DNA from: a virus | Lineage: Duplodnaviria; Heunggongvirae; Uroviricota; Caudoviricetes | Strand: one strand, 5' to 3' | Length of the DNA stretch: 18,343 nucleotides | Virus record (IMG/VR): IMGVR_UViG_2541047726_000006 | Location: 1 to 18,343 of that record | Part shown: piece by piece, positions 1-14,578 of the stretch | Layout: each line of letters begins with the position of its first letter | Position numbering within the stretch: position 1 is the stretch's first letter | Position numbers and translations under genes: made by a program | The notes under the pieces: generated by a model | Database searches by the model: none | Told to the model about the DNA's origin: nothing | What the model saw: only the letters and a program-made list of their open reading frames with translations

Positions 1-1119
1 TCAAATAACCAACTTAACCCATTCCTGACCTCGAGTATCGTTATAGCGATCGGTGGTTGCCTGGACTTTATGTCCTAGTAATGTTTTTGTATCGATACCC
101 TGTGCACGGTACAGCCGTTCTGATAGAGAGCGTTGTTCATGAAATGTTGGCGGAGTTTTTCCTGCTGGTGGAATTATCCCAGCCAGATCCCGTGCTTTGG
201 CAAAGTAGTCGCTCAGGTTGTCTTTACTCATCGGCTTCGGTTGTTTCTGGTGCCGACTATGGATTAGATATGGACTTAATATTCTGTCTCGGCACCCATC
301 AATAACTTCTTTTAACGTTATCCCAATGGCATCACAGCGTAGTGTAAGCGGTAACGCCAGACGCATTCCGGTTTTTCCCTGGGTGATATGCAAGTGTTCG
401 TTCCACACATCTGAAAAACGCATGTGGCAAATGTCATCACGGCGCTGACCAGTAACAATCGCAAGAAGCATTGCGTTACGGATAAAGTGTTTTTCAGGCG
501 TTGCATTGTAAATTTTTTGCCAGTCTTCCATGGTGAGCCTGGCTCTGGTTACTTTAGGGATCGGTTTACGGGTAGCCTCCGGAGGATTCCATCCAGGAGG
601 AACTTCCCCTGCATGCTGTGCTTCTTTATAAATATCAACCCATAATCCACGATTTACTCTCGCTGTGCTGACCATGTCTTTATCCAGCCACTCATCCAGT
701 ATTAATGCAAAGTCTCTTACTTCCAGTTCTTTCAATGGGTGGTTTCCCAGACGGGAAACCAGGTATGCAGCCATTCGAGTTTTTTCTTTGTGAGTTGTAG
801 CTGCAATATCTCCATTTTTCAGTCGCGTGTCCTGTATTTTCAGATATCGATCAACCCATGCCTTTAATCTGATACCCCGACGTTTTGTTGCTGACGGACT
901 TTCATCAATTTTGCGCATGAAATATTCAGCTTCTGCTGCAGCTATTCGCTGATTGGCTGTGGAAGCGATTTTTTCTGCCTTACCTTTGTCTGTTCCGAGT
1001 CCGTGAAATTTTCCAGTCACAGGATTTTTATACTGGTAGTAAACTCTGCCAGTTCTGCGATCAAACTTTTCGTAAAGACCGGCTACGTCAGTGCTGTTTT
1101 TTCGTGGCCTCGGTGACAT
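1..1119 (-). CDS. int: Phage tyrosine integrase, lambda Int family, complete (stop at 1-3)
   Basis: 372-aa ORF. C-terminus FHEQRSLSERLY...LLGHKVQATTDRYNDTRGQEW matches the lambda Int catalytic block (H-x-x-R and the nucleophilic Tyr) as recalled. Last gene of the leftward arm, so attL should lie just outside the window. Confidence 0.93.
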   Translation of the reverse strand: MSPRPRKNSTDVAGLYEKFDRRTGRVYYQYKNPVTGKFHGLGTDKGKAEKIASTANQRIAAAEAEYFMRKIDESPSATKRRGIRLKAWVDRYLKIQDTRLKNGDIAATTHKEKTRMAAYLVSRLGNHPLKELEVRDFALILDEWLDKDMVSTARVNRGLWVDIYKEAQHAGEVPPGWNPPEATRKPIPKVTRARLTMEDWQKIYNATPEKHFIRNAMLLAIVTGQRRDDICHMRFSDVWNEHLHITQGKTGMRLALPLTLRCDAIGITLKEVIDGCRDRILSPYLIHSRHQKQPKPMSKDNLSDYFAKARDLAGIIPPAGKTPPTFHEQRSLSERLYRAQGIDTKTLLGHKVQATTDRYNDTRGQEWVKLVI

Positions 1120-1418: not shown

Positions 1419-3857
1419 TTAAAAATCAGCCTGACTCGGGATCAGTTTTTGCCAGATAACTGAAACGTATTTTGCCTGGTAACGGGCGTCATCAAGTGCA
1501 TTATGGCGCTCACCTTCGAATGGAATAGCCGTTCTGGCATCGAAGTCTATGGCTTTCCCCAGCTCAACGATTGTGCGTACATCTCGATCGTTGTAGTAAC
1601 GCCACGGGCAGGGGATCCCCTGCCGTTCGTATGAACGGCGCAAAATCGTGTTGTCGAAGTTGGCTCCATTTCCCCAGACCTGAACAAAAAATTCACCGGA
1701 GTTTTCGTCGATAAATTCCCGCAATTGTAACAGTGCATCATCTAACGGGATTTCATCGGTCATAATGGCAGATTGCGCTTCGCGTGATTGCTTAAGCCAC
1801 CATTTAATGGTGTCCCGATCAATGACCCCGCCAGCAGTTTCCAGATCGATAGTCTTACTAAATTCCGGTCCCATATCTCCGGTTTGCGGATCGAAAAATA
1901 TTGCACCTATTGAGATGATCGGGGCATCAGGATTTTTTCCCATGGTTTCAAGGTCGATCATTAGATGGTCACACGTCCTGCTGGTGGATGTGATAACATG
2001 ATGACCGTTCACCGTAATTAAGGGATCTGCCGTCTCGCCAGTTTCACTATCGCTGGCGTGATCCTGAGCGCTGCCAGCATTCTCCTTGTGTGGATGTTCA
2101 GCGCCTTCCATTTCCTTCGGATCATTTTCCTGAACTTCAACCTGATTCTCTTCATCGAATGTTTCCTGGTATGTTGCGTCGCCCATCACCGCGCCACAAT
2201 CAGGGCAGTTGCCGCCGCCGGTCTGACCGCAGGCGGTGCAGATCTTTTCCGGTTCCTGTTGCACTACTGGTTCAGGTTGTTTCGTTTCTGGCTCGTTTTG
2301 TAACGCATTTGGGCTGTTTTGTTCCGCTTTCTGGTCGTTCTGTTCCGATTCTTGCTGGTTCTGGTTTACAGAATCGCGGGTTTCAATCCCCTTTACCCAT
2401 TTCGGATCATTCGGGTCGCTAATCCCTGCAACAAATTCTCCGCGAGAGGCAGCAAGCAACTTATCGGCGTCAGGCTGGCTGATATTGGCTGCCTGCATAA
2501 TTTTGTTTACTTCGTCAGCGGTAACTTTTACCTGTGACTTGTCATCCAGCGGCTGCGGGTCCTGATGATGTTCAACTGTATCCGCTGCCATTGTTTCAGC
2601 CGTTGCCTGTTCATCTGCCATTGCGCCAGATGGTTGCGGGTTATCTTCATCATTTTTTTCTTCTTCTGTTTTGCACTCAGCAGCCAGTCCGCCGTTAATT
2701 TCTTCCAGGATATCTTTTTCCGGTGTATGCCGGGCAGCCATGAGCGTTTCAGCTGTGGGATTCTCGTGATCAGTTTCTGTCAGGTTGGCATTGATATACC
2801 CCTGAAGGCGCCCCGGGTAGTGATAAAACTCAGGGTGGGCGCTTCGGATAAGTGCAAAAATAGCTGCGCGGGAATAGTCCAGGATACCAGGGGTTGCGCG
2901 AAGTGCTGCGGACCATTCCCTGAACGGACTTTCTTTTTTCAGGACGATTTCTTTTGCGCGACGATAAACGCTGCCCGGAATTTCATAAATATTAAAATCC
3001 ATCGGAAGTGTGGCTGCTGCAATCTCCACATCCAGCGCATCGAAGGTGTGTACTAAATTCGGATTGCGATCGGTTTTGTTCCCGCCACCGGCATTTGCAC
3101 CGGAAGCCGTACGGGTGATACGCGAAACACGATTTCCTTTCATCCACTCTTTTGTCAGCAGACCCCGATCAGTGTAATCAGCGTCCAGGTATGCCTCGAA
3201 AAAAGCAGTTATCAGTCCCAGGTCTGAATTACCGGGATTAGGGAAAACTTTGTCAGTGTCGCGTACCAGTTTGTGAAGGTCGCGAATCTCCAGCGGGTCG
3301 AGCAGCTTTGTTTTGTGAGAAATGGCCAGGGCAGTAACAGCCGGCAGTTCTTCCGCCCGTGCTATATGTAATGCCTGAAGTTCTTCCCGTGCAACGTGCG
3401 TTACTGGTTTTTCGCTGCTGTGTTGCGCAAGCCAGCGAATGGGCAGCTCCTGACCAGAAACCGGCAGGAGCATATTCTCCTCAATCTCCGTCATGTCTTC
3501 GCCGTTGACGTTGGTATTGTCAGTACTGGCTGGTTTCTCCTGCACGGAGGGAGAGGGCGCGATAAATACCATTGTAATGCCATCTTCCCCGCCTTTTTCG
3601 TATCGGTTGCAGAATTCGGTATCAAACACGCCTTCAGGTGGAAGGTCATTCACAACGGGTAAATGGACGCGAACGGGTTTTTTAAAGTCGTCTTCATCAT
3701 AATCGTTGTCATCCATTGCGGTAATGCAGCGGGAGATGGCAACAGATAATTTTTTTGCTGTAGTCCAGTAAAAACCACCTTTAATTCCCAGACGTTTTCT
3801 GACTTTGTCATTTTTTGCTTCGCAATATAGCGCAAATTCTTCTTTATCAGTGCTCAT
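1419..3857 (-). CDS. Prophage exonuclease: RecE-like N-terminal region fused to a DEDDh (DnaQ-like) 3'-5' exonuclease domain
   Basis: 812-aa ORF with a GAGGT Shine-Dalgarno before the ATG at 3857. The C-terminal 180 aa carry the three DEDDh motifs: MIDLETMG (Exo I), [12 protein letters not shown] (Exo II), [13 protein letters not shown] (Exo III). N-terminal and central segments ([47 protein letters not shown]) resemble RecE of the Rac prophage as I recall it. Confidence 0.8.
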
Positions 3858-4501: not shown

Positions 4502-4559
4502 AAAAAGGGCGGCAGAGCAGTCACGGAGTAAAACTGATACCGCCAAACGTCACCAGAAA
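4502..4559 (-). ncRNA. dicF: DicF small RNA (ftsZ-targeting sRNA)
   Basis: The reverse complement of 4502-4559 reads TTTCTGGTGACGTTTGGCGGTATCAGTTTTACTCCGTGACTGCTCTGCCGCCCTTTTT, which matches the DicF sequence I recall, including the terminal GC stem and U-run. Ends are approximate because DicF is processed from the operon transcript. Confidence 0.85.
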
Positions 4560-4898: not shown

Positions 4899-6222
<1,324 letters not shown>

Positions 6223-6334: not shown

Positions 6335-6673
6335 TTAATCAGATAACATTTTTTTACGGCGTTCATATTCGTTAATATTTATGAAGCCTGTTGCCAGAAG
6401 CAGTTCGTTAATTTCATGGTTGTTTGGCTGTTTCTGGCTCTTTGAACTGGGATCTTCCACTTCTTTTTCTGCAAATTGTTTTGCTGTATCCTCTGTGCCA
6501 TGGATATTTAAAGCTGTATCTGAAAACAGCCCAGTAAACGCATCGCGCACATTGCGAGCCATATTATCAGTGTCTTTTTTTGTTACCGATTCCAATTCAA
6601 GTTCGTTCAGACGATGACGAAGTGTGTGTGCTGCAATCTCCTGGATTGAAGGAGGTAAATCTTTAAATTCCAT
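6335..6673 (-). CDS. Hypothetical early-left protein
   Basis: ORF MEFKDLPPSIQEIAAHTLRHRLNELE... of 112 aa from the ATG at 6673; an alternative ATG at 6685 overlaps the stop of the upstream gene. Downstream of the DUF1391-like gene in the PL operon. No family recognised. Confidence 0.55.
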   Translation of the reverse strand: MEFKDLPPSIQEIAAHTLRHRLNELELESVTKKDTDNMARNVRDAFTGLFSDTALNIHGTEDTAKQFAEKEVEDPSSKSQKQPNNHEINELLLATGFININEYERRKKMLSD

Positions 6674-6684
6674 CGTCAACCTCA

Positions 6685-6837
6685 TCAGTCAGTGTTTCTT
6701 GCTAACCAGCGATGCGCACCAGCTGCGGTTTTAAACGTTTTACTTTTGGTATACGTCATCGCGGTGAAGGTGCCGTCCTGGTTAGGGAACACACCGCATA
6801 CCAGAGATTCGTTGTTGCCAAGATTGAGCGTATCCAT
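6685..6837 (-). CDS. YdfA/YdaF-like small protein (DUF1391-type)
   Basis: 50-aa ORF MDTLNLGNNESLVCGVFPNQDGTFTAMTYTKSKTFKTAAGAHRWLARNTD. It is the first gene downstream of the putative PL, as ydfA is in the Qin dicB operon. Family assignment is from memory. Confidence 0.65.
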   Translation of the reverse strand: MDTLNLGNNESLVCGVFPNQDGTFTAMTYTKSKTFKTAAGAHRWLARNTD

Positions 6838-7620: not shown

Positions 7621-7992
7621 TCAGGCGCGGCGGCATTTTTGCGCCGCAATCCATCTCGCTATGAGATCTTCCATTGATTCTTTTTTCTGCTTTAACTCGC
7701 TGATTATCTGGCGTTGCTCATCCTCAGGGAAGGCTGAAAAAATCTGCAATAATTCCAGTTGATTAGACGTTAACCCTGCATGTGGTGGAGAAACCCCCGG
7801 TTGTTCTGCGTATTCCGCATCCAGATACCCTTCCGGCATCCCGTATGTTTGCTCTATTCTTCTGGCAGCCTTTTCTCCAAACGAGGCTCTCCCACTCATT
7901 AGTTGAGATAGGTAGCTCTTCTCTTTGGGTGGCAGAGTTTTATCTTTAAACCACTCCTTGAGACGTAAACGGCGAATTTCTTTTTTTTGCAT
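7621..7992 (-). CDS. DicA/RacR-type HTH repressor in the cI position (PaaR2-like)
   Basis: 123-aa product from the ATG at 7992. XRE-type helix-turn-helix KSYLSQLMSGRASFGEKAARRIEQTYGMPEGYLD and a C-terminal LELLQIFSAFPEDEQ segment resembling the DicA C-terminus. No S24 peptidase domain. Divergent from the cro-like gene, with no Shine-Dalgarno, so possibly leaderless like lambda cI. Confidence 0.75.
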   Translation of the reverse strand: MQKKEIRRLRLKEWFKDKTLPPKEKSYLSQLMSGRASFGEKAARRIEQTYGMPEGYLDAEYAEQPGVSPPHAGLTSNQLELLQIFSAFPEDEQRQIISELKQKKESMEDLIARWIAAQKCRRA

Positions 7993-8089
7993 GTGGTAAT
8001 TATCTTTAGTAATCACTAAACAAGCAAATACTTGACTTAATGGTTTATTAAACACTAAACTCGCAAAAAAACACTAAACCGAGGAAGGT
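7993..8089. promoter_or_regulatory. Divergent promoter/operator region (OR with PR, probably also the repressor promoter)
   Basis: Three direct CACTAAAC repeats at 8014-8021, 8053-8060 and 8072-8079. Near-palindrome TTTAGTAATCACTAAA at 8005-8020. PR candidate: TTGACT at 8032-8037 and TAAACT at 8056-8061, 18-bp spacer, upstream of the cro-like ATG at 8090. Confidence 0.6.
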
Positions 8090-11359: not shown

Positions 11360-11752
11360 ATGGCAAAAGTATTTACACCAGAAGAGCGGGAAGAAGTGAA
11401 GGCGCGCATTGTGGAATTCGTGCGCCTGAGCGGACGAGAAACTTTTCGACAACTGGCAGATAAAACGGGTGTCAGTAAGACCGCTATTCGTCGTTTATCT
11501 GGTGCGCTTGCGGCCAGTGGTGATGTCTGGCTCTCTGGTTGCGGGGTATTTCCATCAGAGCAGGTGTATCGCGTATGGCGTAAGACACCGGAGAAGGCTG
11601 CTGACCCGACACTGATTCGAAAGTTACCTGACGGAGAAATACGTCGTTACAACAGACGGCAGAACATAATTTGTCGTGAGTGCCGCCAGAGCGAAGTTAT
11701 GCAGCGTGTGCTGGCGTTCTATCGGGGAAACTTTCAGGAGGTGATGGAGTGA
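11360..11752 (+). CDS. Hypothetical protein with a winged-helix-like segment related to the upstream gene
   Basis: 130-aa product from the ATG at 11360 with a GGAGG Shine-Dalgarno. The segment ETFRQLADKTGVSKTAIRRLSGALAASGDVWLSGCG resembles the repeats of the preceding protein. Confidence 0.6.
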   Translation: MAKVFTPEEREEVKARIVEFVRLSGRETFRQLADKTGVSKTAIRRLSGALAASGDVWLSGCGVFPSEQVYRVWRKTPEKAADPTLIRKLPDGEIRRYNRRQNIICRECRQSEVMQRVLAFYRGNFQEVME

Positions 11753-12045
11753 GGGTCAGAGTTTATATTGCCGGTCCAATGACGGGATATGAAAATTTCA
11801 ACCGTGAGGCGTTTCACAAGGCGGAAGAGGAACTGAAACGGGAAGGGCATACCGTCTTAAACCCGGCAGTACTTCCGGACGGGCTGACACAGCCGCACTA
11901 CATGGATATTTGCATGGCAATGATTCGTTGTGTGGATGCGATTTACATGCTGAATGGCTGGCAGCGGTCAGCGGGCGCTAAGGCAGAGCTGGCACTGGCG
12001 GAGAAACTGGGGCATGCAGTGATTTATCAGGAGGTGGCTCAATGA
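11749..12045 (+). CDS. DUF4406-like protein (nucleoside 2-deoxyribosyltransferase-like fold)
   Basis: GTG start at 11749 with AGGAGG at 11735-11740. The product VRVYIAGPMTGYENFNREAFHKAEEELKREGHTVLNPA...DAIYMLNGWQRSAGAKAELALAEKLGHAVIY fits the DUF4406 pattern as I recall it. Confidence 0.65.
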   Translation: MRVRVYIAGPMTGYENFNREAFHKAEEELKREGHTVLNPAVLPDGLTQPHYMDICMAMIRCVDAIYMLNGWQRSAGAKAELALAEKLGHAVIYQEVAQ

Positions 12046-12503
12046 GAGAGGTTAACTATGAGGCGCTTCGTGAGGCAGCACAAAACTATCAGTCGACGCT
12101 GGCGTGGTATCAGGCTATCCCGGACAGCCCAAATGCTGAACGGGATTGTGATGCGGCTCTTGCTGCGTTTAAGCGTCACATCCGTCATCGGGAAGCGGAT
12201 ATTATCGCTGATTTGCTGGATGGACTGGAAGAAGCAAAATCACAACTCAAAGAGCAGCGTGAGTATTACGAAGGCGTTATCTCTGATGGGAGCAAGCGTA
12301 TTGCTGAACTGGAAGCGCGGGAAGTTCAATTACCGACTCGCTACGACCTTCGATATGGACACCCGATAAATGCAGATGAGCGACATGTCATGATACCTAA
12401 AGAAAATGGCAGTTGGCTTTACCTGATTGACCTAGAACACGCATTACGCGTCTCTGGCATTCGCATCAAAGGAGAGGAGCATGGAAATAAAACCAGAGGA
12501 TGA
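12042..12503 (+). CDS. Hypothetical protein
   Basis: 153-aa ORF with a CAGGAGGTGG Shine-Dalgarno. No family recognised. Confidence 0.6.
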   Translation: MREVNYEALREAAQNYQSTLAWYQAIPDSPNAERDCDAALAAFKRHIRHREADIIADLLDGLEEAKSQLKEQREYYEGVISDGSKRIAELEAREVQLPTRYDLRYGHPINADERHVMIPKENGSWLYLIDLEHALRVSGIRIKGEEHGNKTRG

Positions 12504-12837
12504 GTTAAGCAATATCGTTTTATTTCCGGTAAAAGAGGATGACCCTCGTAATCAGGTTAATTTTCTTTATGAGCCATCGGAAAGACCATATTGTCATCAC
12601 GCCTCTGTCCGGGTTGACGAAAAAGAGCGTCAGGTCCGCTGTAAAATCTGCGGTGCAGTTGTGGAGCCATTTGACTGGATGCTCTCTGTGGCGAAAAGAG
12701 AAACCAGACTGGCAGATGATGTAAGGCACTTGCGCCAGGAGGAGCGGGAAAGGCGAAAAAATATAGAAAAGCTAATTCAGATTGAGCGTAACGCGAAAGC
12801 GCGGATACGCAGGGCGACAAAATCCAGAACTGAATAA
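12481..12837 (+). CDS. Hypothetical protein with a putative zinc ribbon (CHH...CxxC) and a basic coiled-coil tail
   Basis: 118-aa ORF with an AGGAGAGGAG Shine-Dalgarno. Motif YCHHASVRVDEKERQVRCKICGAV, then an Arg/Lys/Glu-rich C-terminus. Confidence 0.6.
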   Translation: MEIKPEDELSNIVLFPVKEDDPRNQVNFLYEPSERPYCHHASVRVDEKERQVRCKICGAVVEPFDWMLSVAKRETRLADDVRHLRQEERERRKNIEKLIQIERNAKARIRRATKSRTE

Positions 12838-12901
12838 TTAAATTTAGCTCTGTTAAAAATTTAATCCTTAACCGGAGGGATTTCTGCACCCTCAGAACAT
12901 C

Positions 12902-12930
12902 AGGAGGCCGCCCGAAAGGGCGGTAGTTAA
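12902..12930 (+). promoter_or_regulatory. Split ribosome-binding site: AGGAGG separated from the ATG by a GC stem with a GAAA tetraloop
   Basis: AGGAGG at 12902-12907, hairpin CCGCCC-GAAA-GGGCGG at 12908-12923, then AGTTAA and the ATG at 12931. Linear spacing is 23 nt; with the hairpin formed the effective spacing is about 6-7 nt. Confidence 0.4.
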
Positions 12931-13113
12931 ATGCGAAAGTTTAAAATAATTATTGAAACGGGAATAGCCGGTGGAGATTTCGAGGATGAATTCGAAGTGG
13001 ATGATGATGCGATGCCTGATGAAATACATGACGAAGCAAAAGATATTTTCTTTAACTACTGCAATTACTCATATCACGAAATAAAAGACGAAGAGGAAGA
13101 GCAAAATGGCTGA
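12931..13113 (+). CDS. Small highly acidic protein (60 aa, about 20 Asp/Glu)
   Basis: MRKFKIIIETGIAGGDFEDEFEVDDDAMPDEIHDEAKDIFFNYCNYSYHEIKDEEEEQNG. AT-rich coding sequence. Its stop overlaps the next start. Confidence 0.5.
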   Translation: MRKFKIIIETGIAGGDFEDEFEVDDDAMPDEIHDEAKDIFFNYCNYSYHEIKDEEEEQNG

Positions 13114-13282
13114 TTTTGGTTCAACTAAATACAACGTCAGTTTTGAAGCATGGCATGAACTGTTAATGGACTATGCAGAGTTACGTGGTGGCAGTGCTGC
13201 TGATGCTGAAGCATGGCGTGATGATTATGAAGCAGGAAAAACTCCGGTCGAAGCATATTGTGATGAGTGGGGCGATGAATGA
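13106..13282 (+). CDS. Small acidic protein (58 aa), absent from the ORF track because it is under 60 aa
   Basis: ATG at 13106 preceded by GAGGAAG. Product MADFGSTKYNVSFEAWHELLMDYAELRGGSAADAEAWRDDYEAGKTPVEAYCDEWGDE. Start overlaps the previous stop and stop overlaps the next start (ATGA). Confidence 0.45.
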   Translation: MADFGSTKYNVSFEAWHELLMDYAELRGGSAADAEAWRDDYEAGKTPVEAYCDEWGDE

Positions 13283-13794
13283 GCGAGATTAATTATCAGG
13301 AAGGGCATGAAACGGCAGGGCAGGCAAAACCAGTTGCATGGCGATATCGCTACGTGAAAAAAGACGTTACAGACTTTCAGGGGAAGCCGTGGGCTGGTGA
13401 CTGGAAATATGTACCGACAAAAGAGGATTGTAACGACAGGCCGAACTATGAAATTCAGGCCTTATTCATCGGCCCGCCAGTCCCGGTGACATCAGAAGGA
13501 CTGGTTAAAGCCGTGCGCTTTTATGAACAGGTAAAGCGTGAGAATCCGCCAGTCGAAACAGGAGCATGGAAGGATGCTGTTGACTGGGTGCTCAGAGAGG
13601 CCTGCTGCGCTGCCATTCTGGGTAAAGCCGACAATCCACCAGCATCCGGCAATCAGGTTAGCGAATTAACAATGTGGGTTAAACGACTGGTCAGTCAACT
13701 GAAAAAAGCTCAGCCGGACTGTAAATTACCGGAGAAGGCGATGGATTACCTGAAACGAAATGGACTGATAAGCGTGGAGGATGTTTTACGATGA
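13279..13794 (+). CDS. Hypothetical protein
   Basis: 171-aa ORF translationally coupled to the two acidic ORFs. No family recognised. Confidence 0.6.
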   Translation: MSEINYQEGHETAGQAKPVAWRYRYVKKDVTDFQGKPWAGDWKYVPTKEDCNDRPNYEIQALFIGPPVPVTSEGLVKAVRFYEQVKRENPPVETGAWKDAVDWVLREACCAAILGKADNPPASGNQVSELTMWVKRLVSQLKKAQPDCKLPEKAMDYLKRNGLISVEDVLR

Positions 13795-13838
13795 ATATTT
13801 AGACTAAAGAGTTTGTAACGCTATGTAAGTGATTTTTT

Positions 13839-13870
13839 CTGGTTTAGATATTTATATGTCCGGCCAAATT
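13839..13870 (+). repeat. Imperfect direct repeat, copy 1 (GGTTTAG-ATATTTA-TGTCCGG-CAAA)
   Basis: CTGGTTTAGATATTTATATGTCCGGCCAAATT resembles TTGGTTTAGTTGGATATTTACTGTGCCGGACAAAAA at 14110-14145. The two copies bracket the small membrane-protein ORF. Confidence 0.45.
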
Positions 13871-13914
13871 GAGGTGTGTTTAAATGTTATTGCACATTGA
13901 TTGTAGGGGGAATA

Positions 13915-14094
13915 ATGAAAAACGCATTGCAGTTTTTGTTTGTTGCGTTCTGGTTGTTCGCATCATGTATGCCCATCATCTTCACAGCAAGGTATATGGA
14001 AAAAATTGATGTTTTGATATTAATGTTTGGACATATAAATGCCCTTTTTTTAGGGGTGTTCATGGCGGTCATGTGCATTGAATACTGGCGGTAA
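13915..14094 (+). CDS. Small hydrophobic protein (59 aa, two predicted transmembrane segments)
   Basis: ATG at 13915 with an AGGGGG Shine-Dalgarno. Product MKNALQFLFVAFWLFASCMPIIFTARYMEKIDVLILMFGHINALFLGVFMAVMCIEYWR. Lies in a very AT-rich segment. Confidence 0.45.
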   Translation: MKNALQFLFVAFWLFASCMPIIFTARYMEKIDVLILMFGHINALFLGVFMAVMCIEYWR

Positions 14095-14109
14095 ATACAG
14101 CGAACGCCA

Positions 14110-14145
14110 TTGGTTTAGTTGGATATTTACTGTGCCGGACAAAAA
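14110..14145 (+). repeat. Imperfect direct repeat, copy 2
   Basis: See copy 1 at 13839-13870. This copy sits just upstream of the putative hok promoter (TTGCGG-N16-TAGAAT, about 14150-14177). Confidence 0.45.
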
Positions 14146-14237
14146 CGGTTTGCGGGGAAATCTTAGTTAAGTAGAATAACTGCGGGTGCTTGAGGCTATC
14201 TGTCTCAGGCATGAACACCAAAAGGCAGATAGAGAAA

Positions 14238-14302
14238 AGCCCCAGTTAACATTACGCGTCCTGCAAGACGCTTAACATTAATCTGAGGCCATATCTATGC
14301 GA
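14238..14302 (-). ncRNA. sok: Putative Sok-like antisense RNA, position inferred only
   Basis: By analogy with plasmid R1 hok/sok, the antisense RNA should cover the mok leader and start region. A candidate minus-strand -35 TTGACC is the complement of 14334-14339. Ends are not determined. Confidence 0.25.
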
Positions 14303-14356
14303 CACATAGAGATTAGCCTCTTACGGACCGAAAGGTCAAGGAGAAGCAGGCTATGA
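14297..14356 (+). CDS. mok: Short mok-like leader ORF (19 codons) ending in overlap with the hok start
   Basis: ATG at 14297 preceded by GAGG; encodes MRHIEISLLRTERSRRSRL and stops at TGA 14354-14356, overlapping the hok ATG at 14353 (ATGA). Confidence 0.3.
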   Translation: MRHIEISLLRTERSRRSRL

Positions 14357-14508
14357 AGCAGCAAAAGGCGATGTTAATCGCCCTGATCGTCATCTGTTTA
14401 ACCGTCATAGTGACGGCACTGGTAACGAGGAAAGACCTCTGCGAGGTACGAATCCGAACCGGCCAGACGGAGGTCGCTGTCTTCACAGCTTACGAACCTG
14501 AGGAGTAA
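14353..14508 (+). CDS. hok: Hok-family type I toxin (51 aa), absent from the ORF track because it is under 60 aa
   Basis: MKQQKAMLIALIVICLTVIVTALVTRKDLCEVRIRTGQTEVAVFTAYEPEE matches the Hok/HokD (RelF) family as I recall it. The upstream leader has complementary CUAUCUG/CAGAUAG elements. Confidence 0.9.
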   Translation: MKQQKAMLIALIVICLTVIVTALVTRKDLCEVRIRTGQTEVAVFTAYEPEE

Positions 14509-14578
14509 GAGACCCGGCGAGGGAGAAATCCCTCGCCACCTCTGATGTGGCAGGCATTCTCAACGCACCCGCACTTAA

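What the first reader, a model, noticed from the sequence alone, without database searches (positions are those of the whole stretch)
12838..12933. Structured leader with a hairpin-split Shine-Dalgarno ahead of the acidic-protein cassette
The only strong Shine-Dalgarno (AGGAGG, 12902-12907) is 23 nt from the ATG at 12931, but a GC stem with a GNRA tetraloop (CCGCCC-GAAA-GGGCGG) sits exactly between them and would bring the two to about 6-7 nt when folded. A second hairpin (GAGGG...CCCTC, 12875-12893) and a 9-bp AT palindrome (ATTAAATTT...AAATTTAAT, 12837-12865) precede it. This looks like structure-dependent translation initiation, as described for phage T4 gene 38, or a regulated leader, rather than a plain intergenic gap.
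Basis: seen in the sequence. Interest (0 to 1): 0.42.

Follow-up and report, generated by a model that had tools for sequence, protein, structure and literature searches.

The report
Portable prophage gene linker with hairpin-split ribosome site
The 93-base gap is one copy of a conserved connector that E. coli lambda-like prophages place between many unrelated small genes, and its last 30 bases put a very stable hairpin between a strong ribosome-binding site and the start codon, probably so that folding brings the two together as in two known phage T4 genes.

Summary
In detail: every coordinate is exact. The GC/GAAA hairpin (12907-12924, -14.4 kcal/mol, formed in about 100% of the predicted ensemble) is the most stable short hairpin on the + strand of the window.

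It is a roughly 100-nt modular connector of Escherichia/Shigella lambdoid prophages.
- Part A is the stop cluster CTGAATAATTAA, an AT-rich palindrome and CCTTAACCGGAGG. In phage ArgO145 that GGAGG is the working ribosome site of another gene.
- Part B is TCAGGAGG-CCGCCC-GAAA-GGGCGG-TA. It precedes at least six different ORF N-termini, always 6-11 nt before the ATG.
- Only one of those spacers has a ribosome site of its own.
- The same cassette sits in pR/nin-like operons (this window) and in pL/ea22 operons.

Best explanation (about 0.5): a split ribosome-binding site, with folding cutting the SD-AUG distance from 23 to 6-7 nt as in T4 genes 38 and 25, on a linker that also serves as a recombination joint.

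Covariation support is weak: one compensated pair, and variant stems are no more stable than random mutants (P about 0.2). The 3' arm is itself SD-like, so a repressive reading remains open. No terminator, promoter or Rfam family matches. Nothing was tested experimentally.

The parts
12481..12837 (+). Upstream ORF of 118 aa (weak zinc-ribbon match, phrog_1621). Its last two codons and stop (GAA TAA) lie inside the conserved linker.
   Evidence: In 134 of 135 linker copies the upstream ORF ends at this same TAA.
12830..12841 (+). Left edge of the linker, CTGAATAATTAA, with stop codons in all three frames (TGA 12831, TAA 12835, TAA 12839).
   Evidence: Sequence. It is conserved behind at least 4-5 different upstream C-termini. 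Only the TAA at 12835 is normally used.
12837..12865 (+). AT-rich 9-bp inverted repeat with an 11-nt variable centre (part A).
   Evidence: -2.5 kcal/mol only. 90% of cells are paired across 66 variants, with many breaks. No promoter-like site was found.
12864..12869 (+). ATCCTT, invariant in all 66 distinct copies. It resembles an anti-SD. It pairs with the AGGA of SD2 in about 50% of the ensemble, or with GGAUU 12878-12882 in the alignment-based consensus fold.
12874..12879 (+). Orphan Shine-Dalgarno GGAGGG (SD1). In ArgO145 the same GGAGG is followed by TATATTTATG and drives gp16. Here no start codon follows it, and it is buried in hairpin 1.
12875..12893 (+). Hairpin 1: GAGGG / CCCUC with a 9-nt loop.
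   Evidence: -7.2 kcal/mol, P about 0.95. 97.6% of cells are paired but there is no compensatory change. RNAalifold prefers a competing helix.
12902..12907 (+). Shine-Dalgarno AGGAGG (SD2), the start of part B.
   Evidence: Its duplex with the 16S tail is -10.3 kcal/mol. The GGA core is invariant in 66 distinct copies. Its nucleotide diversity is 0.010, against 0.05-0.12 at neighbouring synonymous sites.
12907..12924 (+). Hairpin 2: G.U plus the six pairs CCGCCC/GGGCGG, capped by a GAAA tetraloop.
   Evidence: 96.3% of cells are paired in 66 variants. One G-C to A-U compensation is seen, along with both of its intermediates.
12924..12930 (+). Spacer TAGTTAA with no SD of its own. Homology to copies that precede other genes ends 1-2 nt after the stem.
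12931..13113 (+). DUF7167 ORF of 60 aa, acidic. It is the first gene of the DUF7167 / 58-aa / 171-aa cassette.
   Evidence: Diversity at codon positions 1, 2 and 3 is 0.018, 0.022 and 0.125, which indicates purifying selection on the protein.

Best explanation
Window 12830-12930 is one copy of a modular intercistronic connector found in Escherichia/Shigella lambdoid prophages.

Its 3' module (part B, about 12900-12925: TCAGGAGG-CCGCCC-GAAA-GGGCGG-TA) works as a portable 'split' translation-initiation region. The 30S subunit docks on the exposed AGGAGG. The 18-nt GNRA-capped hairpin stays folded and is accommodated between the SD and the start codon. The AUG, 23 nt away in the linear sequence, then sits at an effective 6-7 nt.

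Its 5' module (part A: stop cluster, AT-rich palindrome, CCTTAACCGGAGG) is a second linker type. Its SD is orphaned here and tied up in hairpin 1.

Because the connector is shared by many unrelated genes, it also serves as a short homology patch where accessory-gene cassettes are swapped, inserted or deleted, and moved between the pL and pR operons.

Shown directly: the anatomy, the predicted stability, the modularity, the portability and the distribution. Inferred: that the ribosome actually uses the folded form, and that recombination occurs within the linker.
For: - **Geometry and stability.** The SD-AUG distance drops from 23 nt to 6-7 nt. Hairpin 2 is -14.4 kcal/mol and always formed, while the AGGAGG is about half free in the predicted ensemble. 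The hairpin is about the same size as the T4 gene 38 and gene 25 elements, for which mutational evidence exists (PMC3014915).
- **Portability.** The same SD+hairpin precedes at least six different ORF N-termini: MRKFKIIIE (60 aa), MTELTKEQL (135 aa), MTELTKEWL (187 aa), M(V/T)TLFRK (72 aa), MQ(D/E)IKEN (158-196 aa) and MEITKERL (174 aa). The stem-to-ATG spacing is 6-11 nt. The spacers are A-rich and lack GGAG, GAGG or AGGA, except in the 11-nt case.
- **Selection on the gene and the SD.** The downstream ORF is under purifying selection, so it is translated, and 12931 is its only possible start. SD2 is the least variable part of the gap (diversity 0.010), although it is 23 nt from any start codon.
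- **Rarity.** It is the strongest short hairpin on the + strand of the window. No other SD-hairpin-start arrangement exists in about 1.9 Mb of related DNA.
- **Modularity and the joint role.**
  - The gap recurs with neither, one or both of this window's flanking genes in E. coli genomes (2706 of 5426 genomes match some part of the 251-nt query that spans the gap and both flanking gene ends).
  - ArgO145 carries A-only, B-only and A+B linkers in one operon. Two part-B copies there flank a three-gene cassette, and gp16 sits exactly where this window has a 21-nt filler.
  - Homology breaks 1-2 nt after the stem.
- **Substitutions in the stem.** In a sample not selected on hairpin 2, 29 of 113 copies carry C-to-U changes in the 5' arm that keep U.G pairs, and 2 copies carry a compensated G-C to A-U pair.
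Against: - No experiment or ribosome-profiling data could be consulted.
- Covariation is weak. Only 1 of 7 pairs in hairpin 2 shows a double change.
- Observed stem variants are not significantly more stable than matched random mutants (P = 0.18 weighted by haplotype, 0.30 unweighted).
- The stem arms vary about as much as synonymous sites. The number of C-to-T sites in the 5' arm (3) barely exceeds the number of G-to-A sites in the 3' arm (2).
- About 15 of 113 copies have a damaged stem, and whether the gene still works in those copies was not checked.
- The 3' arm AGGGCGGU is a decent SD mimic (-7.8 kcal/mol) at the ideal 7-nt spacing, so the hairpin could instead be sequestering the real SD.
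- The element is confined to Escherichia/Shigella (3 real hits among 185,579 species genomes). Its conservation may therefore reflect recent spread rather than selection.
Confidence: 0.5

Rival explanations
1. The hairpin is a repressor. The functional SD is the well-spaced SD-like 3' arm (AGGGCGGU, 7 nt from the AUG), and the CCGCCC arm, an anti-SD mimic, locks it away. The upstream AGGAGG is only a standby or landing site. The hairpin therefore keeps these accessory genes at a low translation level.
For: - AGGGCGGUA pairs with the 16S tail at -7.8 kcal/mol at ideal spacing.
- The 3' arm is about half as variable as the 5' arm (diversity 0.058 against 0.126).
- The common 5'-arm variants (CCGCCU, CCGUCC) weaken the stem by 2.6-2.7 kcal/mol yet are frequent.
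Against: - Opening the stem costs 14.4 kcal/mol and gains only 7.8, whereas the free AGGAGG gives -10.3 at no cost.
- The AUG itself lies outside the hairpin.
- Nothing in the leader would open the stem: the upstream stop codon is 70 nt away, and no competing helix is predicted.
Confidence: 0.15
2. The hairpin serves RNA stability, processing or insulation and has no role in SD-AUG spacing. It could be a barrier to exonucleases or a fixed structural end after endonucleolytic cleavage of the polycistronic early transcript. Translation would then start through the A-rich unstructured spacer.
For: - It is a very stable GNRA hairpin sitting in the only sizeable gap (93 nt) of an otherwise tightly packed operon.
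- Its sequence is not under strong constraint.
- The loop of hairpin 1, GG|AUU, fits the RNase E cleavage motif RN|WUU. That motif is recalled from memory and was not tested.
Against: - This does not explain why a strongly conserved AGGAGG abuts the stem.
- It does not explain why the stem always lies 6-11 nt from a start codon in front of six different ORFs.
- A -14 kcal/mol hairpin inside the 30S footprint must be accommodated in any case.
Confidence: 0.15
3. The element is purely a DNA-level recombination joint, a boundary sequence. It is conserved because it spread recently by homologous exchange between prophages, and its RNA fold has no function.
For: - Mosaic breakpoints fall at both edges of the linker. 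The same linker occurs between many gene pairs and in both early operons, and part-B copies flank a cassette in ArgO145.
- Diversity in the linker is about equal to synonymous diversity.
- It is confined to Escherichia/Shigella.
- The boundary-sequence model is established for some phages (PMC3233612).
Against: - The downstream genes still need a ribosome site, and most have none apart from this AGGAGG.
- SD2 is more conserved than its surroundings.
- The joint role and the translation role do not exclude each other.
Confidence: 0.12
4. It is a transcription signal or a small RNA. Candidates are an intrinsic terminator or attenuator, a boxB-like antitermination hairpin, a promoter in the AT-rich part, or a prophage sRNA such as the Pas RNAs.
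For: - A GC hairpin with a GNRA loop superficially resembles terminator stems and lambda boxB.
- The AT-rich part has TTAAAT, 16 nt, then TTTAAT (8 of 12 matches to the promoter consensus, by eye).
- PasA and PasC sRNAs occur in prophages that carry DUF1627, RusA and sok, as this one does.
Against: - No terminator-like or promoter-like site lies in the gap on either strand.
- The stem is followed by UAGUUAAAU, or by other A-rich tails in the variants, never by a U run.
- No Rfam family matches, even at E up to 10.
- The would-be boxA position is the most variable part of the linker.
- The element sits about 4.8 kb downstream of cro and can occur several times in one operon.
- All Pas sRNAs end in a stem plus poly-U and lie next to the lysis genes.
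Confidence: 0.05

Closest known systems
Split ('accommodated') ribosome-binding sites of phage T4 genes 38 and 25 (Nivinskas et al. 1999; Malys & Nivinskas 2009, as reviewed in PMC3014915)
   Same: In both, the SD is too far from the AUG in the linear sequence (22 and 27 nt in T4, 23 nt here). A single hairpin of about 16-18 nt lies wholly between them, and folding restores a spacing of 5-11 nt (6-7 nt here). Both are phage mRNAs translated by E. coli ribosomes.
   Different: There is no sequence homology. The T4 cases are each tied to one gene and have reporter, mutational and DMS-probing evidence. This element is a mobile cassette in temperate lambdoid prophages, is used by at least six different ORFs, and has no experimental support. 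Its 3' arm also mimics an SD.
Conserved boundary (linker) sequences between modules of lambdoid and other mosaic phages (model summarised in PMC3233612)
   Same: It is a short conserved sequence exactly at gene boundaries, flanked by unrelated genes. Mosaic breakpoints fall at its edges, which fits targeted homologous recombination.
   Different: It is about 100 nt long and internally modular (A, filler, B), and it carries its own translation signals and hairpins. I found no paper that contains this sequence.
PeSL mobile regulatory cassettes of T4-type phages (PMC2839356, PMC4122927)
   Same: These are repeated intergenic regulatory motifs with a stem-loop, found in regions rich in small non-essential genes. 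Copies flank gene cassettes and mediate insertion, deletion and replacement.
   Different: PeSLs are an early promoter plus a working terminator. Here no promoter or terminator is detectable, and the signals are translational (stop cluster, SD, hairpin, start).
Lambda/P22 nut-site boxB hairpins
   Same: Both are short GC stems with a GNRA-type loop in early operons of lambdoid phages.
   Different: This is a true tetraloop on a 7-bp stem, not a pentaloop on a 5-bp stem. There is no conserved boxA, the position is wrong (deep in the nin/ea22 region), and it is always fused to an SD and a start codon.

Membership tests
Split / accommodated RBS (T4 gene 38 and 25 type) | The SD lies beyond the functional linear distance from the start codon (more than about 15 nt). 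| tested here: met
   23 nt lie between G12907 and A12931.
Split / accommodated RBS (T4 gene 38 and 25 type) | A stable hairpin lies entirely between the SD and the AUG, and folding restores a spacing of about 5-11 nt. | tested here: met
   Hairpin 12907-12924 is -14.4 kcal/mol with P about 1.0. The folded spacing is 6-7 nt here and 6-11 nt in other copies.
Split / accommodated RBS (T4 gene 38 and 25 type) | No alternative SD lies at canonical spacing. | tested here: inconclusive
   The spacer has no SD, but the 3' arm AGGGCGGU has -7.8 kcal/mol pairing potential with the anti-SD while locked in the stem.
Split / accommodated RBS (T4 gene 38 and 25 type) | The intervening structure is conserved across relatives. 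| tested here: inconclusive
   96% of cells are paired and one compensated pair is seen. However, variants are not more stable than random mutants (P = 0.18 and 0.30), and stem diversity is about equal to synonymous diversity.
Split / accommodated RBS (T4 gene 38 and 25 type) | Stem-disrupting mutations lower translation and compensatory mutations restore it. | not testable with these tools
   This needs reporter fusions and toeprinting.
Phage boundary / linker sequence (recombination joint) | The same short sequence occurs at gene boundaries between unrelated flanking genes. | tested here: met
   At least 4-5 different upstream C-termini and at least 6 different downstream N-termini are found. 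The gap also occurs with neither of this window's flanking genes.
Phage boundary / linker sequence (recombination joint) | Cassette gain or loss occurs between linker copies. | tested here: met
   ArgO145 has gp16 between part A and part B, where the window has a 21-nt filler. Two part-B copies 1072 nt apart flank a three-gene cassette. That recombination produced these arrangements is inferred, not observed.
PeSL-type mobile regulatory cassette | A strong sigma-70 promoter plus a functional terminator stem-loop. | tested here: not met
   No promoter-like or terminator-like site lies in the gap, and no U tract follows the stem in any variant.
Intrinsic terminator | A GC hairpin followed directly by a U-rich tract. 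| tested here: not met
   The tail is UAGUUAAAU on the + strand and CCUCCUGAU on the - strand. The scan found 0 sites in 11500-14500.
nut site (boxA + boxB) | A conserved boxA upstream of a boxB hairpin, placed just downstream of pL or pR. | tested here: not met
   The candidate boxA region (12847-12856) is the most variable part of the linker. The element lies about 4.8 kb from cro.
Any Rfam family | A covariance-model match. | tested here: not met
   Nothing reaches the gathering score in the gap. The best match at E up to 10 is SscA at 18.5 bits against a threshold of 60.

The most novel reading that the evidence does not exclude
Lambdoid prophages of E. coli carry a natural 'plug-and-play' intercistronic part. 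It is a roughly 100-nt connector that ends any upstream reading frame and then supplies a self-contained ribosome site, in which a hairpin bridges the SD and the start codon. Its strength would depend little on the gene that follows. The same connector provides the homology by which the phages' own recombinases (RecET or Red) shuffle accessory genes within and between the pL and pR operons. That would be a translational counterpart of the T4 PeSL cassettes, and the first split ribosome-binding site that is mobile rather than tied to one gene.
Probability: 0.3. Interest if true: 0.6.

Novelty: new member of a known kind. Interest (0 to 1): 0.4.

Why it matters
If the hairpin really bridges the SD and the AUG, split ribosome-binding sites would no longer be a curiosity of two T4 genes. 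They would also exist as a reusable element spread through about a quarter to a half of sequenced E. coli genomes.

It would also give a concrete, sequence-defined joint for the long-debated 'boundary sequence' model of lambdoid mosaicism.

There are two practical consequences. Gene callers sometimes read through the linker and produce N-terminally extended DUF7167 proteins. And the 26-nt part B could be tried as a compact natural translation-initiation part.

Tried and rejected
- **Rfam** at gathering score and at E up to 10: nothing in the gap.
- **Terminator and promoter scans:** no site in the gap.
- **boxA/boxB idea:** AGCTCTGTTAAAAA resembles the rrn boxA by eye, but this segment is the most variable part of the linker. 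Dropped.
- **Pas prophage sRNAs** (bioRxiv 10.64898/2026.05.13.724894): these occur in similar prophages, but all end in a stem plus poly-U and lie beside the lysis genes. Rejected.
- **Long-range helix in the minimum-free-energy fold** (12842-12849 with 12925-12932): it is not kept when the spacer or downstream gene differs. Treated as AT-rich coincidence.
- **My first reading of a compensatory change in hairpin 1** (GAGTG/CACTC) was wrong. On the alignment it is a U-U mismatch.
- **Deep phylogenetic covariation:** not possible. DUF7167 homologues are all from E. coli. A degenerate pattern scan of 185,579 species genomes gave only 3 Escherichia/Shigella hits plus about 6 chance hits.
- **Three-frame 'universal stop' idea:** the stops exist, but 134 of 135 upstream ORFs use the same TAA.
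- **Search for other SD-hairpin-start architectures** in about 1.9 Mb of related loci: none besides this family.
- **Full-text search for the hairpin sequence:** 0 papers.
- **Leader peptide:** no ATG, GTG or TTG follows SD1, only a CTG at 12884 in another frame.
- **CsrA binding to the GGA motifs:** considered, but it rests on motif resemblance only and was not tested.
- **Not checked:** whether K-12 or other strains with public ribosome-profiling data carry the element.

Full report
**Context**

The window is a Rac/Qin-like lambdoid prophage of E. coli (Pfam; Rfam). Its layout is:
- integrase, 1-1119 (-)
- RecE-like exonuclease, 1419-3857 (-)
- DicF RNA, 4507-4558 (-)
- IS3-type transposase, 5075-5893 (-)
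- a candidate repressor ORF, 7621-8055 (-), with no family match
- a rightward operon on the + strand: cro/YdaS-like (8090), YdaT, O-like, DnaC-like, DUF1627, DUF977, DUF4406, Ead/Ea22, a 118-aa zinc-ribbon ORF (12481-12837), then the gap
- DUF7167 (12931-13113), a 58-aa ORF and a 171-aa ORF
- sok/hok, 14184-14510
- DUF968, RusA and a Q-like protein

From cro to 13794 the genes abut or overlap. The 93-nt gap is the only break longer than 21 nt.

**The observation**

- AGGAGG (12902-12907) is 23 nt from the ATG at 12931.
- Between them lies CCGCCC-GAAA-GGGCGG (12908-12923), extended by a G12907.U12924 pair.
- The hairpin is -14.4 kcal/mol and its stem is paired in essentially the whole ensemble.
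- It is the most stable hairpin of 20 nt or less on the + strand of the window.
- Hairpin 1 (12875-12893) is -7.2 kcal/mol. The AT palindrome is only -2.5 kcal/mol as RNA.
- 12931 is the only possible start, because TAA lies in frame at 12928-12930. It also aligns with position 1 of Pfam DUF7167 and phrog_1997.
- The ORF is under purifying selection. Diversity at codon positions 1, 2 and 3 is 0.018, 0.022 and 0.125.

**What it is: a shared, modular connector**

A BLAST search of 5426 complete E. coli genomes with a 251-nt query spanning the gap found 5043 places in 2706 genomes, and 1235 genomes hold at least 80% of the query. Among those places the gap occurs with both, one or neither of this window's flanking genes.

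From about 200 IMG/VR loci I collected 230 copies, 90 of them distinct. They show two modules.

- **Part A** runs from CTGAATAATTAA, which has stops in three frames, through the AT-rich palindrome to ATCCTTAACCGGAGG.
  - In phage ArgO145, part A is followed directly by TATATTTATG and gene gp16.
  - So the GGAGG at window 12874-12878 is a genuine ribosome site elsewhere. Here it is orphaned and buried in hairpin 1.
- **Part B** is TCAGGAGG-CCGCCC-GAAA-GGGCGG-TA.
  - It precedes at least six different ORF N-termini at 6-11 nt from the stem.
  - It can also follow a different gene's stop codon directly (GATTAATGTCAGGAGG).
  - Homology between copies that precede different genes ends 1-2 nt after the stem.

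ArgO145 has an A-only, a B-only and a full A+B linker in a single operon, and two part-B copies there flank a three-gene cassette. The same zinc-ribbon / linker / DUF7167 block lies in a pR/nin-like operon here and in vB_EcoS-640R1. In ArgO145 and the Stx2a phages it lies in the pL/ea22 region.

A degenerate pattern scan of one genome from each of 185,579 species found the element only in E. coli and Shigella. DUF7167 homologues are all from E. coli. No deposited phage record annotates the gap, and no paper in the library contains the hairpin sequence.

**How it most likely works**

The anatomy fits the 'split' initiation regions of T4 genes 38 and 25. In those, a hairpin between the SD and the AUG reduces 22 nt to 5 nt and 27 nt to 11 nt, and mutations that destabilise the stem lower translation (PMC3014915). 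Here 23 nt becomes 6-7 nt.

Four points support this reading:
- Energetics favour the folded form. AGGAGG pairs with the 16S tail at -10.3 kcal/mol without opening anything, whereas the stem would cost 14.4 kcal/mol to open.
- The spacers in front of all but one of the partner genes are A-rich and carry no ribosome site. Those genes therefore depend on this unit.
- AGGAGG is the least variable part of the gap, with diversity 0.010 against 0.05-0.12 at synonymous sites. This is hard to explain unless it serves the only start codon available.
- No other SD-hairpin-start arrangement exists in about 1.9 Mb of related DNA, so the arrangement is not a common accident.

**What limits confidence**

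- Comparative support for the stem is weak. On 66 distinct sequences, 96% of hairpin 2 cells pair, but only one pair shows a double change (G-C to A-U), and both of its intermediates are also present.
- In a sample not selected on hairpin 2, 29 of 113 copies carry 5'-arm C-to-U changes that keep U.G pairs, but about 15 copies are damaged.
- The variant stems are not significantly more stable than random mutants with matched numbers of substitutions (P = 0.18 and 0.30).
- The stem arms vary about as much as synonymous sites. A count of polymorphic sites shows no clear asymmetry between the two arms.
- The 3' arm AGGGCGGU mimics an SD (-7.8 kcal/mol) at the ideal 7-nt spacing. A sequestered-SD, repressive reading therefore cannot be excluded.
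- For the middle of the linker, single-sequence folding prefers hairpin 1. The alignment-based consensus fold instead prefers AAUCC (12863-12867) with GGAUU (12878-12882). That part remains unresolved.

**Other readings**

- Terminator, promoter, nut-like and known-RNA readings fail on sequence grounds.
- The Pas prophage sRNAs are a different element.
- The boundary-sequence model (PMC3233612) and the T4 PeSL cassettes (PMC2839356) are the closest known analogues for the joint role. PeSL membership fails, because there is no promoter or terminator here.

**Verdict**

The T4-like interpretation is plausible and is the best available (about 0.5), but it is not demonstrated.

The firmer and newer result is that the 'leader' is one copy of a widespread, modular connector of lambdoid prophages that combines translation signals with a recombination joint. 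I rate it a new member of known kinds, of moderate interest.

Noticed in passing
window 14184-14355 (+), with the ORF at 14353-14508: A complete sok antisense RNA (Rfam RF01794, 106.7 bits) overlaps the start of a 51-aa hok-like ORF. Strong hairpins follow at 14517 and 14576. This is a hok/sok type I toxin-antitoxin module inside the nin-like region.
   Followed up: partly
window 4507-4558 (-): DicF antisense sRNA (Rfam RF00039, 76.7 bits). It places the prophage in the Qin/Rac dicB-type group.
   Followed up: no
window 5075-5893 (-): An IS3-family transposase ORF (rve domains) sits between the DicF region and the candidate repressor ORF (7621-8055). It is probably an IS insertion in the early-left region of the prophage.
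   Followed up: no
proteins P0003 (87 aa) and P0004 (93 aa), homologues of window 12931-13113: Some database versions of DUF7167 are N-terminally extended. P0003 is translated straight through the linker and hairpin (…HQEAARKGGSERRKFK…), in a variant where the in-frame TAA is GAA and the ATG is lost. P0004 has a different upstream sequence but likewise continues in frame through GGSE into MRKFK. Both look like annotation artefacts or decaying copies.
   Followed up: partly
L001 (ArgO145) 6376-6440, 6640-6685 and 7656-7755: One pL operon carries three versions of the connector: A-only, B-only and A+B. The A+B copy has 7 nt deleted from the centre of the AT palindrome.
   Followed up: yes
window 12863-12882: The inverted repeat AATCC/GGATT is almost invariant in 66 distinct copies and would present SD1 (CCGGAG) in a 10-nt loop. 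It competes with hairpin 1. Its meaning is unknown; a GGA in a hairpin loop is reminiscent of CsrA sites.
   Followed up: partly
phage record PP818812.1 (Actinobacillus phage vB_Apl-pPE4), 11316-12093: A phage listed with an Actinobacillus pleuropneumoniae host carries the linker and DUF7167 block at about 92-93% identity to this E. coli window. Possible explanations are a misassigned host, contamination or a very recent transfer.
   Followed up: no
loci with GGGCGG followed by GGAGCAGTCA, CTGTTCCGCT, CGGTTCCATT or TAGCTCCATT: In a few copies, part B is followed immediately after the stem by unrelated sequence with no nearby start codon. The 3' foot of the hairpin is therefore also a breakpoint for other rearrangements.
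   Followed up: no
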